From Escherichia coli (GTDB taxonomy: Bacteria > Pseudomonadota > Gammaproteobacteria > Enterobacterales > Enterobacteriaceae): a DNA stretch of 64,000 nucleotides. Location of the stretch: NCBI RefSeq assembly GCF_030384885.1, contig NZ_CP128613.1; one strand, given 5' to 3'. Shown here one piece after another: positions 50,301 through 56,300 of the stretch (position 1 is the stretch's first letter; every line of letters begins with the position of its first letter). A program made the position numbers.

Positions 50301-53300
50301 CGCCGGTATTTTGTGGCCGTTCACTGGAACACTGCTTAACCCGGTGGTTGCCGGAGCGGCAATGGCGCTCTCGTCGATCACCGTAGTGAGTAACGCCAAC
50401 CGCTTGCTGCGGTTTAAACCGAAGGAATAAGTATGTCATTGCGGATGCGCTGCTTTAGGGTGGCGCATCTGGCATCGACGCATGCCTGCCGGATGCGGCA
50501 TAAACGCCTTATCCGGCCTACGATTCAGGCACAGGGTTGTAGGCCTGATAAGACGCGTAAGCGTCGCATCAGGCAATGGTGCTCGGATGCCGGATGCGGC
50601 GTGAACGCCTTATCCGGCATCCGAGATGAAGCGATTTTTTGGCCTTACGCGACCTTTTTGCACGTTTTTCCCGGCGTGCCAAATATTTAATCCGTCCCAA
50701 CTCCATTTGCGCCATCCCTCCCCGCGCGCTAGCATGATATTTCACAAAGGGAGGTCGTATGGATCTGTTGTACCGGGTAAAAACGCTTTGGGCCGCGCTG
50801 CGCGGCAATCATTACACCTGGCCTGCTATCGATATCTCTCTTCCCGGCAATCGCCATTTTCATCTGATTGGCAGTATTCATATGGGCAGCCACGATATGG
50901 CTCCCCTGCCCACCCGTTTGCTCAAAAAGCTCAAAAACGCCGATGCGCTGATCGTCGAGGCGGATGTTTCCACCAGCGATACGCCTTTTGCCAATTTGCC
51001 TGCCTGCGAGGCGCTGGAAGAGCGCATTAGCGAGGAGCAATTACAAAATCTGCAAAACATAAGCCAGGAGATGGGTATTTCTCCGTCGCTCTTTTCCACC
51101 CAACCACTGTGGCAAATCGCGATGGTTCTTCAGGCAACGCAGGCGCAAAAACTGGGGCTGCGGGCAGAATATGGTATCGATTACCAGCTATTGCAGGTGG
51201 CGAAGCAACAACATAAACCCGTGATTGAACTGGAAGGGGCAGAAAACCAGATTGCCATGTTGCTCCAGCTCCCTGACAAAGGACTGGCGCTGCTGGACGA
51301 TACGCTGACCCACTGGCACACCAACGCTCGTTTGCTGCAACAAATGATGAGTTGGTGGCTGAATGCACCACCGCAAAATAATGAAATAACGCTGCCGAAT
51401 ACGTTCAGCCAATCGCTGTACGATGTGCTGATGCATCAGCGAAATCTCGCCTGGCGGGATAAACTGCATGCTATGCCGCCGGGGCGCTATGTGGTCGCGG
51501 TCGGAGCTTTACATCTGTATGGAGAAGGGAATTTGCCGCAGATGTTGCGCTAAAAAAATGGCCAATATCGCTATTGGCCCGTCAAAGAGGAATTTCATTT
51601 TTTTATTATTATGCCGTCACTTTAAGCGACGGTGTAACTCGATTGTCGCTCAATCTCACCATCCTGCCAATACTCTTAGGCAAGATGACTCTTTTTTTTG
51701 GACCGCCATCAGGCGTATGCTTGCTTCGTTTTTTTGTTTAAGGCAGGAAAATTATCATGACACCCGCAGTTAAATTACTCGAAAAAAACAAGATTTCGTT
51801 TCAAATCCATACCTACGAGCACGATCCGGCTGAAACCAATTTTGGCGATGAAGTCGTCAAAAAATTAGGTTTGAATCCGGATCAGGTCTACAAAACGCTG
51901 CTGGTCGCAGTGAATGGTGATATGAAACATCTGGCAGTGGCCGTTACGCCGGTCGCCGGTCAACTGGATCTTAAAAAAGTAGCAAAAGCGCTGGGTGCCA
52001 AGAAAGTTGAGATGGCCGATCCGATGGTCGCGCAGCGTTCGACGGGATATCTGGTTGGGGGGATTAGCCCACTGGGGCAGAAAAAACGCCTGCCGACGAT
52101 TATCGACGCCCCCGCGCAAGAGTTTGCCACTATTTTTGTTTCTGGCGGCAAGCGCGGGCTGGACATCGAACTGGCGGCAAGCGACCTGGCGAAGATCCTC
52201 GATGCCAAATTTGCTGATATCGCTCGTCGCGATTAAGTGATGCACACGGAAGATGAGATGTGGAAAGGATTACAGAGACATTAAGTATCGCTTGTGCAGA
52301 TGAGATACCGGATATCGCCTTACTTCGGCAAACATCGAGAGAGAAGGTATTACATCTGCATTTTGCCAGCGAAGCAGAGAGGTATCGTGAGGAATTCGGG
52401 CTGGTGCTGAAAGCACAGCTCGATGAATTTGTTGTTGGCATGCATTCTGCCGACCCGGTTATCAGGATCGCCAGATTAATATCGCTTGAAGAGATTAACC
52501 GCCATCAGGATTTTTTCGAACACTGCGCGAAAGAATATCGTAAGCTGGCGACAGAGCTTATATTTGCATTGGCTGAACAACTGAATGTTGAGATGGCGGA
52601 AAATAACCCGCTAGTTACCTTTGCCCCCTTCAAATGCAACCGTAAGCGAAAAGGCAAAATGGGAAAGTGGCAGTATTGTTTTCACGGTTTTCATTGTGCA
52701 TTTGAGAATAAAAAAACAGAGCAAAATATTGAAGTTCCCCTCGCCTACGGCTTTGATTTCGGCGATCTGGACCCGTATTTTTTTTCCGGATTTATCAAAT
52801 CGACCCCCGACTGGCAGCCTCTGCCAGTGGCTATTTACGATGATTACCACGACGGCAGCAGGATCATTCAACAACTGCTGGCGCTGGGAAAGTTAGAAAA
52901 AATCCCTTCACCGATCCCACAATACACGGGGGTTGCTGCGGTAGATCGGTCCAATGTCGACATCGCAAATTTTCGCTCAACACTGGAGAGTCGCCTGCAC
53001 CGATGTAAATTACGCTGGCTTTTGAAGCGTGTAAAAAATTCACAAAGGAGCGAAAGATGAAATTTGACCATCTTGTTGATGTTAGCTTCCACAATTTTGT
53101 CTTTAACGGAAAATTCGATTTTGTCGAACCGGGGCAAACAATGGCATGGCTGGAACAAAACTTTGTTGAGCCGGACTCTAAAAATGATATGGGAAATGGT
53201 TTTTATATCTGGCTATTTGGCAATGTTGAGTTTCATTTCGAAAGCAACAAGCTATATATGATTTGGTGCGATTATTTGAGCCAAATCCATTTGGGCAAAG

Positions 53301-56300
53301 CGATCCGATTTGATAAAGGAATATTGAATAACGTCGCTGAGTTGAACGTTACGCGTGTATTTAACATGCTTGTTAACGAAGGCGCTGATCTGCAAATCCG
53401 CCGTCAATCGCTCAGGCGTGACACTTTGGTTTGAAGCAGATGAAGAACAGTCTGGTGAACCGCAGAATTATATGCTGATGGCATTTGGTTTGACACATCG
53501 CGATTACGATGCAAGATTTCAATATTCATAAATGGCGGCGTCATATCATGACGCCGCGACAGGGTTCATTACTGCCAGCTCACCTCACCTTTCGGTTCAT
53601 AGACACTCACATCCAGCGGCGAGTTTTTCTGGATATACGCTTTCAGCACTTCAGCATCAATAAAGCCGGTATTCACATAGCCCGGTTTGTTATCCAGACG
53701 CGGATAGCCATCACCGCCAGTGGCATTGAAGTTTAATGTCGCCATACGGTAAGTTTTCGCCGGATCGACCGGTTCGCCTTTGATTTTCAGGTCGTTCAGT
53801 TTGCCGTCTTTCGCCACAAAGCTAACGTTGGCAAATTGCGGATAGGCACCAGAATCAGGCTTCATTTGTGCGACGGCGGTCAGGTAATCAATCACCTCTT
53901 TACCGGTCATGTCGGCATACACCACCACATTGCCGAATGGCTGCACTTTCAGCACATTTTTATAGCTGATATCACCTGCTTCGATAGAATCACGAATTCC
54001 GCCTCCGCTCATCACCGCAAAGTCGGCACCAGTGCGATCCATTTGTGCTGCCAGAATCAACCGCCCCATATTGGTCTGTACAAAACGCACTTTGCTGCGG
54101 TCGCCTTCCAGACGACCATTGGTTTCGCCTATTTTCACTTCCAGCTGCGCTTTGCCTTTGTTCTGGAACGGTGATAACAGCGAAATCATTTGCTGGTTTT
54201 CGGCGATTTCAGGGGTGTAAAGCACACGCTCGCTTTTCCCGTCTTCCCAGGTCACTTTCTTCTTCAGGTTTACCGGAATCAACTGGTAGTTGACCATTTT
54301 CATTTCGCCGTTGCGAAACTCAAAGTCGGCCCGACCTACGTACTTGCCCCACTCATGCGCCTGTACAATCCAGATGCCATTTTGTTGATCCGGTTTGCAT
54401 GGCGTACCAGGAACGTAATCGACCTGTTTTTTATTTTCTGCCGCCATACAGACTGGATCTTGCGAGTGACCTCCGACGATCATCGCCAGCGATCCGGCAG
54501 GCAGCGCGCGTGCCATTTCCACATCGCCCGCTGCGTTAGAGCCGTGCTCACCATTGTCGTAATGCCCCATATGGGTCGCCGCGATAATAATGTCTGGCTT
54601 TTCTGTCTGTTGCAGCTCCTGAATCACCAGCTTCGCTTCATCGGCGGGTTTACGGAACTCAATATCGGTGAAGTTTTCTGGGTTGCCTAACTTCGCTGTG
54701 TCATCCGTCGTCAGACCAATAACGGCAATTTTCAGATCCTGACGCTTAAACAGCGCCCATGGTTTAAACAGGCGCTCACCAGTGCTTTTTTGGTAGATAT
54801 TGGCGGAAAGCAACGGGAACTTAGCCCACTTTTCCTGCTGGCGTAATACGGTGAGCGGGTTATCAAATTCATGATTACCGATTGCCATCGCATCATAGCC
54901 CACCAGATTCATACCGCGAAAATCAGGTTCGGCATCCTGTAAGTCGGACTCGGGCACGCCAGTATTAATGTCGCCACCGGAAAGTAGCAGCACGCTACCA
55001 CCTTCAGCCGCAACCTCTTTGCGAATACCGTCCACCAGCGTTTTTTGCGCCGCAAGACCATATTCGCCATATTCATTACGCCAGAAATGACCATGATGAT
55101 CATTGGTATGCAGAACTGTAATTTTGTAGGTTTTATCCTGCTCATAAGCCAGAGCAGTTTCACTCGCCAGTGTAAATGTGGTTAACAGTGCTAACGCCAC
55201 GCCCCGCTGCAATAATTTCATACTTCTCTCCCTGATCAGATTTCAACGTGTTGAAAAATAGTATGACGCGACATCATAGACAAGTCTGCGTCCGGTGAAG
55301 ATAAATCTGCATCCAGATTAGAAATTCTGTATTCAGCGTTGAGACTTCCTTCAGGCGGCGCATACAGGTATGTTAGTCGGGTAATAATCACAAATAAGAT
55401 CATTCTTTACATCGCAACCCTGAAAAAGTGACTTTCCTATGGCAATGAGTGAACAAACCCAGCCAGTGGCTGGCGCTGCTGCGTCAACGACTAAGGCCCG
55501 AACATCGTTTGGTATTTTAGGTGCTATCAGCCTCTCACATCTGCTGAACGACATGATCCAATCGCTGATTCTGGCGATTTATCCCCTGCTTCAGTCAGAA
55601 TTTTCTCTGACATTTATGCAAATTGGCATGATAACCCTCACCTTCCAGCTCGCCTCTTCACTATTGCAACCTGTGGTCGGCTACTGGACGGATAAACATC
55701 CGATGCCGTGGTCGTTGCCGATTGGCATGTGCTTTACCTTGAGCGGTCTGGTGCTGCTGGCGCTGGCGGGCAGTTTTGGCGCAGTTCTGCTGGCGGCGGC
55801 GTTGGTCGGCACTGGTTCGTCGGTCTTTCATCCGGAATCCTCACGCGTGGCCCGAATGGCGTCTGGTGGCCGTCATGGCCTGGCGCAATCTATCTTTCAG
55901 GTCGGCGGCAACTTTGGCAGTTCCCTGGGGCCCTTGCTGGCAGCGGTGATTATCGCGCCTTATGGCAAAGGCAACGTGGCGTGGTTTGTACTTGCAGCAC
56001 TGCTGGCAATCGTGGTGCTGGCGCAAATCAGCCGTTGGTACTCTGCACAGCACCGAATGAATAAGGGCAAACCCAAAGCAACGATTATCAATCCACTGCC
56101 GCGCAACAAAGTGGTACTGGCGGTCAGCATTCTGTTAATCCTGATTTTCTCGAAATATTTCTATATGGCGAGCATCAGTAGCTATTACACCTTTTATCTG
56201 ATGCAAAAATTCGGATTATCTATCCAGAATGCCCAGCTTCATCTGTTTGCATTCCTGTTTGCCGTTGCGGCAGGTACGGTGATTGGCGGGCCTGTGGGGG

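What the first reader, a model, noticed from the sequence alone, without database searches (positions are those of the whole stretch)
52237..53568. Uncharacterised two-gene cassette inserted between ybaK and ushA
From memory, ybaK and ushA are adjacent in K-12. Here about 1.3 kb of AT-rich DNA carries two translationally coupled genes (266 aa and 125 aa, ATGA overlap at 53057-53060). The first has a Cys/His cluster; neither matches a family I recognise. A small coupled pair in an AT-rich insert at a conserved junction is typical of toxin/immunity or anti-phage modules.
Basis: partly seen in the sequence, partly recalled or inferred. Interest (0 to 1): 0.65.

Follow-up and report, generated by a model that had tools for sequence, protein, structure and literature searches.

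The report
Uncharacterised ybaK-linked accessory gene pair
Two real but uncharacterised accessory genes sit between ybaK and ushA in about 14% of E. coli genomes; they are two unrelated genes rather than a toxin/immunity or anti-phage pair, the segment looks ancestral rather than inserted, and the second gene is broken in this strain.

Summary
The two ORFs, their ATGA overlap, the low GC (44.3%) and the K-12 ybaK/ushA adjacency are all real.

1. The 125-aa ORF is a frameshifted allele of a 167-aa gene. A 29-bp deletion between 10-bp direct repeats caused it, and it is seen in 1 of 774 carrier genomes.
2. Gene A does match a family, Pfam DUF6896.
3. The segment is probably ancestral. A and B occur in E. 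fergusonii and E. whittamii, and B in E. albertii. A sits directly 3' of ybaK in a Klebsiella species and in another enterobacterial MAG. K-12-type strains (4648 of 5426) carry a 36-bp spacer instead.

A and B are not a conserved module. They co-occur only in Escherichia. None of about 10 other A loci has B, and none of about 110 other B loci has A. Neither gene matches PADLOC, NCBIfam, PHROGs, phage records or viral contigs.

A is a uniform ~260-aa, mostly Bacteroidota family with an invariant His pair. Its core has no match among solved structures.

B belongs to an unnamed family with a confidently predicted tandem BLIP-like fold. That fold resembles the T6SS immunity proteins TsiN and BtiO, but no B homologue lies downstream of a toxin.

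Best reading: two independent accessory genes, probably co-transcribed with ybaK. B is a probable protein inhibitor and is inactive here. Interest is modest.

The parts
52237..52259 (+). 23-nt ybaK-A spacer. It contains no terminator-like hairpin and has a GGAAG Shine-Dalgarno-like element at 52248-52252, so A is probably co-transcribed with ybaK.
   Evidence: Sequence. The terminator scan finds nothing between ybaK and A. The ybaK-A gap is also short in the homologous loci: 30 nt in Klebsiella (L050/L007) and 12 nt in L046.
52260..53060 (+). Gene A: a 266-aa cytoplasmic DUF6896 protein (RefSeq WP_000439795.1). The model shows an N-terminal beta-alpha-beta-alpha-beta-beta domain, a long helix, a beta-sheet core with the His pair, and a basic C-terminal helix.
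   Evidence: Pfam PF21837, E = 7e-14. 63 homologues by sequence and 325 by profile. AlphaFold model pLDDT 90.1. dN/dS is 0.16 in the DUF6896 core.
52668..52739 (+). H142 and H145 flank a two-residue turn between two predicted strands.
   Evidence: Invariant and near-invariant columns in alignment A2. Strands 137-142, 145-150 and 156-160 in the model.
53045..53050 (+). AAGGAG Shine-Dalgarno sequence for B, 6 nt upstream of its ATG and inside the 3' end of A.
   Evidence: Read directly from the sequence.
53057..53434 (+). Gene B, truncated allele (125 aa; RefSeq WP_001353395.1). Residues 1-117 match the intact 167-aa protein, followed by an 8-residue frameshift tail. Three of the four predicted strands of the second BLIP-like repeat are lost.
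   Evidence: Model of the intact protein, pLDDT 95.7. Residue comparison.
53402..53411 (+). The single remaining copy of the 10-bp direct repeat CGTCAATCGC, marking the junction of the 29-bp slippage-type deletion that frameshifts B.
   Evidence: Alignment of the window with strain SK1144.
53412..53531 (+). Out-of-frame remnant of the 3' end of B. It still encodes ...VTLWFEADEEQSGEPQNYMLMAFGLTHRDYDARFQYS* in another frame.
   Evidence: ORF 53355-53531 compared with the intact protein. The B-family HMM hits the corresponding ORF in L001 (the same strain) at E = 6.8e-8.
53535..53557 (.). Perfect 10-bp inverted repeat GCGGCGTCAT-ATC-ATGACGCCGC between B and the convergent ushA. It is a probable bidirectional terminator. 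K-12 has a different hairpin in its 36-bp spacer.
   Evidence: Inverted repeat I10. K-12 spacer sequence.

Best explanation
The segment is an old, dispensable 3' extension of the ybaK transcription unit. It carries two functionally independent accessory genes, not a two-component system.

Gene A (DUF6896)
- A has long been the gene immediately 3' of ybaK in several Enterobacteriaceae.
- It belongs to a uniform ~260-aa family centred in Bacteroidota.
- Inference: it is a stand-alone cytoplasmic protein whose conserved His142/His145 hairpin, with Gln155, Glu158 and Asp171, forms a metal- or ligand-binding site. Its substrate is unknown.

Gene B
- B was joined to A only in Escherichia, with its own AAGGAG ribosome-binding site and a 4-nt overlap.
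- It belongs to an unnamed ~160-aa family with a tandem BLIP-like fold.
- Inference: it acts as a stoichiometric protein-binding inhibitor in the way BLIP or the T6SS immunity protein TsiN do, probably against an enzyme that is not encoded next to it.

History
- Most E. coli lineages have lost the whole segment and carry a 36-bp hairpin spacer instead.
- Phylogroup B2 and a few other lineages keep it.
- In this strain a 29-bp slippage deletion has frameshifted B, so B is most likely non-functional here.

What is shown: the anatomy, the distribution, the independence of A and B, purifying selection, and the frameshift.
What is inferred: co-transcription with ybaK, metal binding by A, and inhibitor activity of B.
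For: Distribution
- The cassette is in 774 of 5426 complete E. coli genomes, always as one chromosomal copy.
- The K-12-type empty junction is in 4648 genomes. Together these account for all 5422 genomes with a match.
- Carriers include JJ1886, EC958, NC101, APEC O18 and A0 34/86. I assign these to phylogroup B2 from my own knowledge.

Age and synteny
- A and B proteins occur in E. fergusonii and E. whittamii, and B in E. albertii.
- A divergent Escherichia contig has copA-higBA-ybaP-ybaK-A-B-ushA.
- Klebsiella sp. RHBSTW-00484 has copA-ybaP-ybaK-A-ushA-fsr without B.
- An Enterobacteriaceae MAG has ybaK-A followed by four other genes and then ushA.
- A's divergence is comparable with its neighbour: dN 0.35 against 0.26 for ybaP in the same pair.

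Independence of A and B
- Local HMM searches of all fetched loci find A and B together only in Escherichia.
- Profile-profile comparison of A against B finds nothing.

Both are real genes
- dN/dS is 0.13 for B and 0.32 for A, with 0.16 in A's DUF6896 core.
- Both models are confident: pLDDT 90.1 and 95.7.

Fold of B
- There is a weak motif-level echo to the BLIP-like protein 3d4e.
- TsiN is an experimentally shown steric inhibitor of a T6SS DNase (PMC12574953).
- One B homologue lies in a >20-kb same-strand array of small genes that includes SMI1_KNR4, DUF4303 and DUF4304.

Frameshift.

No mobility or defence signals.
Against: - No function has been shown for either protein, and no paper in the searched library mentions them.
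- None of about 110 B loci places B after a recognisable polymorphic toxin. That is unusual for a true immunity family.
- The 4-nt overlap of A and B is kept in a divergent Escherichia, so a lineage-specific functional link is not excluded.
- A stays at 44-49% GC in every enterobacterial host, even where flanks are 55-60%. This fits repeated horizontal spread as well as it fits long residence.
- The cassette is about 1% divergent between this strain and ST131, against about 4% for the flanks. Recombinational transfer between lineages has therefore occurred.
- Truncated A and B alleles are common in E. coli. The common ST131-type allele carries E213Q at a position invariant in the 47-sequence family alignment. 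This suggests weak selection in E. coli.
Confidence: 0.5

Rival explanations
1. One reading: A and B form a toxin/immunity or type II toxin-antitoxin pair. A would be the toxin, using its His/Cys site as a nuclease or peptidase, and the coupled downstream B would neutralise it.
For: - There is a 4-nt ATGA overlap and a strong ribosome-binding site for B.
- A has an invariant His/His/Glu/Asp constellation.
- B has an inhibitor-like fold close to TsiN.
- The segment is AT-rich and variably present.
- The overlap is kept in a divergent Escherichia.
Against: - A is stably kept without B in Klebsiella at the same junction, in an enterobacterial MAG, in Leminorella and in Bacteroidota.
- B is kept without A in about 110 loci.
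- In this strain B is frameshifted while A is intact (4 aa changes from the ST131 allele), and the strain is evidently viable.
- A has no match to any toxin family in Pfam, NCBIfam or PADLOC.
Confidence: 0.06
2. The cassette, or one of its genes, is a new anti-phage defence system that current catalogues do not list.
For: - It is a variable, AT-rich accessory locus.
- Two B homologues lie within a few kb of Gabija (Alysiella) or the candidate system PDC-S04 (Bacteroides sp.).
- Others lie next to VapBC-like or Abi/TA-like genes or an integrase-like gene. These assignments rest on my reading of the ORF sequences, not on a family search.
Against: - There are no PADLOC hits at E up to 1.
- Most A and B homologues sit between housekeeping genes.
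- There is no ATPase, nuclease, sensor or effector architecture. Both are small single-architecture proteins.
- Neither gene has relatives in phage records or viral contigs.
- The locus is fixed in position and is not on a mobile island.
Confidence: 0.07
3. A is functionally tied to YbaK, the Cys-tRNA(Pro) deacylase. It would be an RNA- or tRNA-associated factor of the same operon, and B would be an unrelated passenger.
For: - ybaK and A are adjacent, with 12-30-nt gaps, in three enterobacterial lineages at only 51-59% A identity. In one of them the upstream neighbourhood has been rearranged.
- There is no terminator between ybaK and A.
Against: - In Leminorella and in the three Bacteroidota loci examined, A is not near any ybaK homologue.
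- 86% of E. coli genomes manage without A.
- The fold similarity is generic and weak. Adjacency can be explained by vertical inheritance alone.
Confidence: 0.08
4. Both genes are decaying relics with no current function in E. coli, kept only by drift and hitch-hiking.
For: - The segment is lost in 86% of genomes.
- B is frameshifted here.
- Many truncated A and B alleles exist in databases.
- ST131 carries E213Q at a position invariant in the family alignment.
- dN/dS is raised in A's N- and C-terminal parts: 0.68 and 0.46.
Against: - Purifying selection is clear in B (0.13) and in A's core (0.16) between Escherichia lineages.
- In every other carrier row listed, the segment has the ~1361-bp span that retains the 29 bp deleted here.
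- Both families are widespread and conserved in other phyla.
Confidence: 0.15

Closest known systems
Pfam DUF6896 (PF21837), a domain of unknown function
   Same: A matches the model over residues 87-215 (E = 7e-14), as do all 47 aligned homologues. RefSeq already names the protein 'DUF6896 domain-containing protein'.
T6SS immunity proteins TsiN (PDB 9J9W) and BtiO (9UU1)
   Different: Identity to TsiN is 8% and no sequence-level relationship is detectable. TsiN is encoded directly after its toxin in a VgrG/PAAR cluster. B is never found after a toxin in about 110 loci, and no T6SS genes flank it here.
BLIP / BLIP-like tandem-repeat proteins and relatives (BLP 3GMX, 3D4E; YjgB/DUF4309 4YGT; E. 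coli YfeY 2QZB; BamE/OsmE)
   Different: The known members are secreted or lipoproteins. B has no signal peptide and is predicted to be cytoplasmic. No Pfam model of this group detects any of 70 B-family members.
Type II toxin-antitoxin modules, for example the higB-higA(ybaQ) pair nearby between copA and ybaP in ST131-type strains
   Same: Small overlapping gene pair in a variable chromosomal spot.
   Different: TA partners co-occur wherever they are found, and A and B do not. Neither protein matches a TA family. A survives with B frameshifted.
Orphan immunity genes and poly-immunity arrays of polymorphic toxin systems (recalled from memory: Zhang et al. 2012; the acquired interbacterial defence clusters of Bacteroidales)
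   Same: B has a sporadic distribution across many phyla, small size, few conserved polar residues and occasional tandem paralogues. One homologue lies inside a long array with SMI1_KNR4, DUF4303 and DUF4304 genes. One homologue is fused to a DUF4240 domain.
   Different: Only about 1 of 110 loci is such an array, and no cognate toxin-linked member was found. B is not one of the named Imm or SUKH families.

Membership tests
Pfam DUF6896 (gene A) | Significant match to the PF21837 profile HMM | tested here: met
   E = 7e-14, 52.5 bits, residues 87-215 covering model positions 2-119 of 128. All 47 of 47 homologues match.
Type II toxin-antitoxin or toxin-immunity gene pair (A+B) | The two genes co-occur as a pair across genomes | tested here: not met
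   HMM searches of all fetched loci find the pair only in Escherichia. None of about 10 other A loci has B, and none of about 110 other B loci has A. A stands alone at the same junction in Klebsiella.
Type II toxin-antitoxin or toxin-immunity gene pair (A+B) | One partner belongs to a known toxin family or has a toxin domain | tested here: not met
   Pfam, NCBIfam, PADLOC and PHROGs give no toxin family for A or B.
Type II toxin-antitoxin or toxin-immunity gene pair (A+B) | Toxicity of one partner is neutralised by direct binding of the other | not testable with these tools
   This needs expression and binding assays. Indirect evidence only: an intact A coexists with a frameshifted B in this strain.
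Polymorphic-toxin immunity protein (gene B) | Encoded immediately downstream of a cognate toxin domain in at least some genomes | tested here: not met
   32 genome loci and 80 metagenome loci were inspected. The upstream genes I read from their sequences are holA-like, PrkA/YeaG, RecQ, a Tn3 transposase, VapBC-like, a regulator and others. None is a recognisable Rhs, CdiA, LXG, MafB or PAAR toxin. Not every neighbour was profile-searched.
Polymorphic-toxin immunity protein (gene B) | Occurs in arrays of immunity genes | tested here: inconclusive
   There is one clear case: a Capnocytophaga felis array of more than 20 kb with SMI1_KNR4, DUF4303, DUF4304 and a faint Imm11 hit. A few tandem B paralogues exist. 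Most loci are solitary.
Polymorphic-toxin immunity protein (gene B) | Structural similarity to solved immunity proteins | tested here: inconclusive
BLIP-like tandem-repeat fold (gene B) | Two tandem repeats of helix-helix plus a four-stranded antiparallel sheet | tested here: met
Known anti-phage defence systems (PADLOC-DB v2) | Match to any defence-system protein model | tested here: not met
   No families at E up to 1 for A, for intact B or for truncated B.
Mobile genomic island or insertion element | Integrase or transposase, terminal inverted repeats or a target-site duplication at the borders; presence on plasmids or phages | tested here: not met
   No flanking repeats. There are only two ORFs. 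All 774 copies are chromosomal and at one site. No phage or viral hits. Plasmid hits are only distant Cytophagales homologues.

The most novel reading that the evidence does not exclude
The most novel readings that the evidence does not exclude are these two.
1. B, possibly together with A in Escherichia, is a previously unrecognised protective determinant of B2/ExPEC lineages. It would be a cytoplasmic BLIP-fold inhibitor that neutralises an enzyme delivered by competitors or phages.
2. DUF6896 is a new metal-dependent enzyme family recruited to the ybaK operon in Enterobacteriaceae.
Either would define a new family-level function for proteins that currently have no annotation.
Probability: 0.12. 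Interest if true: 0.55.

Novelty: new member of a known kind. Interest (0 to 1): 0.27.

Why it matters
The locus is a clean presence/absence marker. It is kept in the B2 lineages listed, which include ST131 and ST95-type pathogens, and is absent from K-12-like strains.

It holds two protein families with no known function. DUF6896 has a strikingly conserved His pair and no structural relative for its core. The second is an unnamed family with a BLIP-like fold.

If B proved to be an inhibitor of an incoming toxin, or if A proved to be an enzyme linked to YbaK, that would give a first function to hundreds of hypothetical proteins.

As it stands, the value is mainly corrective. The 'cassette' is not a toxin/immunity or defence module. 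It is probably ancestral rather than inserted. In this genome, half of it is a pseudogene.

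Tried and rejected
- **Family libraries.** PADLOC, NCBIfam and PHROGs gave nothing meaningful for A, intact B or truncated B. Pfam on B and on 70 B-family members gave nothing.
- **PDB sequence searches.** The A profile found 0 hits at E up to 10. The B profile found only non-significant hits.
- **Profile-profile comparisons.** B against E. coli YdcD (an Rhs-associated protein with a double-wing domain) and B against A showed no relationship.
- **Literature.** Searches for DUF6896, the four WP_ accessions, DUF4240, YdcD/double-wing, DUF4309 and ybaK+ushA+B2 found nothing relevant.
- **Mobile-element hypothesis.** No terminal or direct repeats at the borders, no phage, viral or conjugative-plasmid copies.
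- **Antisense or embedded genes.** I rejected these. Promoter-like and terminator-like sites in the region are no more frequent than in shuffled sequence, and minus-strand ORFs are short and unsupported.
- **Search for a cognate toxin upstream of B homologues.** 112 loci from the genome and metagenome scans gave none.
- **A as a cupin, HNH, PD-(D/E)xK or papain-like enzyme.** I considered these from motif spacing only. None fits, and none was confirmed by any search.

Full report
**What is there**

The window region reads copA (47926-50430), ybaP (50759-51553), ybaK (51757-52236), ORF A (52260-53060; GTG start; 266 aa), ORF B (53057-53434; 125 aa), then the convergent ushA (53569-55221, minus strand) and fsr.

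- A and B overlap by ATGA. An AAGGAG sits 6 nt before B's ATG.
- Only 23 nt separate the ybaK stop from A's start, and no terminator-like hairpin lies between them.
- A perfect 10-bp inverted repeat at 53535-53557 separates B from ushA.
- The segment has 44.3% GC against 54.6% for the window, which is the lowest ~2% of equal-sized windows.
- K-12 MG1655 has ybaK and ushA 36 bp apart with a different hairpin.

**Source and census**

- The segment is 100% identical to E. coli 2013C-4282 (human stool, USA). RefSeq annotates the two genes there as 'DUF6896 domain-containing protein' and 'hypothetical protein'.
- It occurs in 774 of 5426 complete E. coli genomes, once each and always on the chromosome.
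- A query spanning the K-12 junction is fully covered in 4648 genomes. Since 774 + 4648 = 5422, which is every genome with any match, the locus is a two-state polymorphism.
- Listed carriers include JJ1886, EC958, NC101, APEC O18 and A0 34/86. These are phylogroup B2 by my own knowledge.

**Gene B is broken here**

- Every other carrier row shown spans about 1361 bp in two BLAST pieces. Only the source strain has 1332 bp.
- Aligned with strain SK1144, the window lacks 29 bp between two copies of CGTCAATCGC.
- SK1144 encodes 167 aa. The window allele keeps residues 1-117 and then reads SLRRDTLV-stop.
- The old C-terminus (…VTLWFEADEEQ…DARFQYS) is still present out of frame and ends at 53531.
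- In the model of the intact protein, the lost part holds three of the four strands of the second repeat. Loss of function is likely; this is an inference.

**Gene A**

- Pfam DUF6896 matches residues 87-215 (E = 7e-14).
- Sequence search found 63 relatives and profile search found 325 clusters. They are almost all 255-275 aa with this single Pfam domain, and mostly from Flavobacterium, Chryseobacterium, Aquimarina, Chitinophaga and other Bacteroidota. Identity to the E. coli protein is 40-50%.
- In 47 sequences the invariant residues include W137, H142, G143, H145, Q155, E158, D171, F174 and F175, with C146 near-invariant.
- The AlphaFold model (pLDDT 90.1) has an N-terminal beta-alpha-beta-alpha-beta-beta domain, a long helix, a sheet carrying the motif, two helices with a hairpin, and a low-confidence basic C-terminal helix.
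- H142 and H145 flank a two-residue turn between strands 137-142 and 145-150. From the pairing geometry, they should lie side by side on one face. I read this as a probable metal or ligand site; this is an inference only.
- No PDB sequence matches the profile. The DUF6896 core thus has no solved relative.

**Gene B family and fold**

- An exhaustive phmmer search found 191 cluster representatives, typically 155-175 aa.
- None of 70 members matches Pfam.
- The model (pLDDT 95.7) is an internal duplication, beta-alpha-alpha-beta4 twice.
- A non-significant profile hit to the BLIP-like protein 3d4e reproduces the family motif.
- TsiN is an experimentally shown steric inhibitor of the DNase effector TseN (PMC12574953).
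- B has no signal peptide by inspection, and its pI is 5.1.
- B therefore looks like a cytoplasmic protein-binding module of the BLIP type. This describes how it may work; it is not proof of family membership.

**A and B are not a module**

Contexts of A:

| Organism or locus | Arrangement |
|---|---|
| Klebsiella sp. RHBSTW-00484 | copA-ybaP-ybaK-A-ushA-fsr, no B |
| Enterobacteriaceae MAG | ybaK-A, then pseudouridine synthase, DUF2058, CSD and ApbA genes, then ushA-fsr |
| Leminorella | solitary, between ubiB and yaeQ |
| Flavobacterium, Chryseobacterium, Chitinophaga | solitary, with unrelated neighbours |

Contexts of B:

- I examined 32 genome loci (Listeria, Paenibacillus, several Neisseria, Moraxella, Alysiella, Capnocytophaga, Bacteroidota and others) and 80 metagenome loci.
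- HMMs built from both families and run on every fetched locus find A and B together only in the three Escherichia loci.
- Genes directly upstream of B homologues, as read from their sequences, include holA-like, PrkA/YeaG kinase, RecQ, a Tn3-family transposase, a VapBC-like pair and a large regulator. None is a recognisable polymorphic toxin.
- The one immunity-like context is a >20-kb same-strand array in Capnocytophaga felis that contains SMI1_KNR4, DUF4303 and DUF4304 genes.
- Two homologues lie near Gabija or PDC-S04 genes.
- One homologue is fused to a DUF4240 domain.

Further negatives:

- PADLOC, NCBIfam and PHROGs give nothing for A or B.
- Neither gene is found in phage genomes or viral contigs. 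Plasmid hits are only distant Cytophagales homologues.

**Polarity and history**

- The 90%-identity clusters of both proteins include E. fergusonii and E. whittamii entries, and B's cluster includes E. albertii.
- A divergent Escherichia contig carries ybaK-A-B-ushA with the same overlap.
- Together with ybaK-A in Klebsiella and the MAG, the simplest history is an old ybaK-linked A, B added in the Escherichia lineage, and later loss of both in most E. coli.
- There are no repeats, integrase or target duplication at the borders.

Two caveats apply:

1. A remains at 44-49% GC in every host, even where flanks are 55-60%.
2. Between this strain and ST131, the cassette is about 1% divergent (dS 0.012 in A), while ybaP, ybaK and ushA have dS of about 0.20, and the change is abrupt at the ybaK stop.

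This strain's flanks are 4-7% from both K-12 and ST131, which differ from each other by about 2%. Its ushA is at least 99% identical only to itself among 5422 genomes. So the source is a divergent lineage, and the cassette has moved between lineages by recombination, or the flanks have been overwritten up to the indel boundary.

**Selection**

Between SK1144 and the divergent Escherichia contig:

| Region | dN/dS |
|---|---|
| B | 0.13 |
| A overall | 0.32 |
| A, N-terminal domain | 0.68 |
| A, DUF6896 core | 0.16 |
| A, C-terminal tail | 0.46 |

Both are therefore real, constrained genes. However, truncated alleles are frequent in databases. The ST131-type A allele also carries E213Q at a column that is invariant in the 47-sequence alignment.

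**Verdict**

The toxin/immunity or anti-phage reading of the pair fails its main testable criterion, which is co-occurrence of the partners. What remains is that B alone has an inhibitor or immunity-like fold.

I rate the evolutionary and anatomical conclusions as well supported. The functional proposals (A a metal- or ligand-binding stand-alone protein, B a stoichiometric protein inhibitor, both read through from ybaK) are inferences, with about even odds overall.

The locus is ordinary accessory-genome content with two uncharacterised families, so interest is modest.

Noticed in passing
window 50431-50758: The copA-ybaP spacer lacks the higB-like toxin / ybaQ(higA) antitoxin pair that ST131-type strains and a divergent Escherichia carry there. 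K-12 has only ybaQ. The window instead has a short spacer (329 nt) containing a REP-type element that matches Rfam naRNA4 at 50542-50619 on both strands. A genuine toxin-antitoxin presence/absence polymorphism therefore lies about 1.5 kb from the finding.
   Followed up: partly
window 51552-51635 (-): The sRNA sroB/ChiX (Rfam RF00368, 82 bits) lies between ybaP and ybaK, as in K-12.
   Followed up: yes
window 48900-56650: The source strain is a divergent lineage. copA, ybaP, ybaK, ushA and fsr are 4-7% different from both K-12 and ST131, which differ from each other by about 2%. Its ushA allele is at least 99% identical only to itself among 5422 genomes. The strain may belong to a cryptic Escherichia clade (not tested).
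   Followed up: partly
window 52231-53530 versus flanks: The cassette is about 1% divergent from ST131 while the adjacent last 200 bp of ybaK are 6-7% divergent, with an abrupt step at the ybaK stop. This indicates recombinational exchange of the cassette between lineages, or overwriting of the flanks up to the indel boundary.
   Followed up: partly
L002 4024-4824 (SK1144, ST131-type allele of A): The common ST131-type allele of A has Gln at residue 213, where this window and all 46 other aligned family members have Glu. This may be a functional change in the most widespread carrier lineage.
   Followed up: no
L048 4061-4861: In a divergent Escherichia contig, A is 8.6% different at the nucleotide level from the ST131 allele, while its flanks and B differ by only about 2.8%. 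The differences are concentrated in A's N-terminal domain and C-terminal tail, which suggests distinct A allele classes or mosaic recombination.
   Followed up: partly
L044 (Capnocytophaga felis), whole 20-kb locus: About 28 small same-strand genes include DUF4304, DUF4303, DUF8184, a faint Imm11 hit, SMI1_KNR4, DUF6620 and a B homologue. This looks like a large poly-immunity array.
   Followed up: partly
L021 3625-6700 (Alysiella crassa): A complete Gabija system (GajA E = 6e-157, GajB E = 6e-80) lies about 1.3 kb upstream of a B homologue. In L026 (Bacteroides sp. 224), a PDC-S04 candidate defence protein lies about 3 kb upstream of another.
   Followed up: partly
L060-L070 (Neisseria-like metagenome contigs): Here the B homologue is followed, with a 4-nt overlap, by a conserved small acidic gene (114-165 aa, starting MTKPPTMPDIRILTRSISEEWEDL...). 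This is a different coupled partner from the one in Escherichia.
   Followed up: no
L122 2198-5751: A distant B homologue overlaps by 4 nt the end of a 1030-aa ORF that I read as a Tn3-family transposase. It would then be a transposon passenger gene.
   Followed up: no
window 11400-16300 and 44200-45100: Two other stretches of the window have GC as low as, or lower than, the cassette (down to 41.7%). I did not examine them.
   Followed up: no
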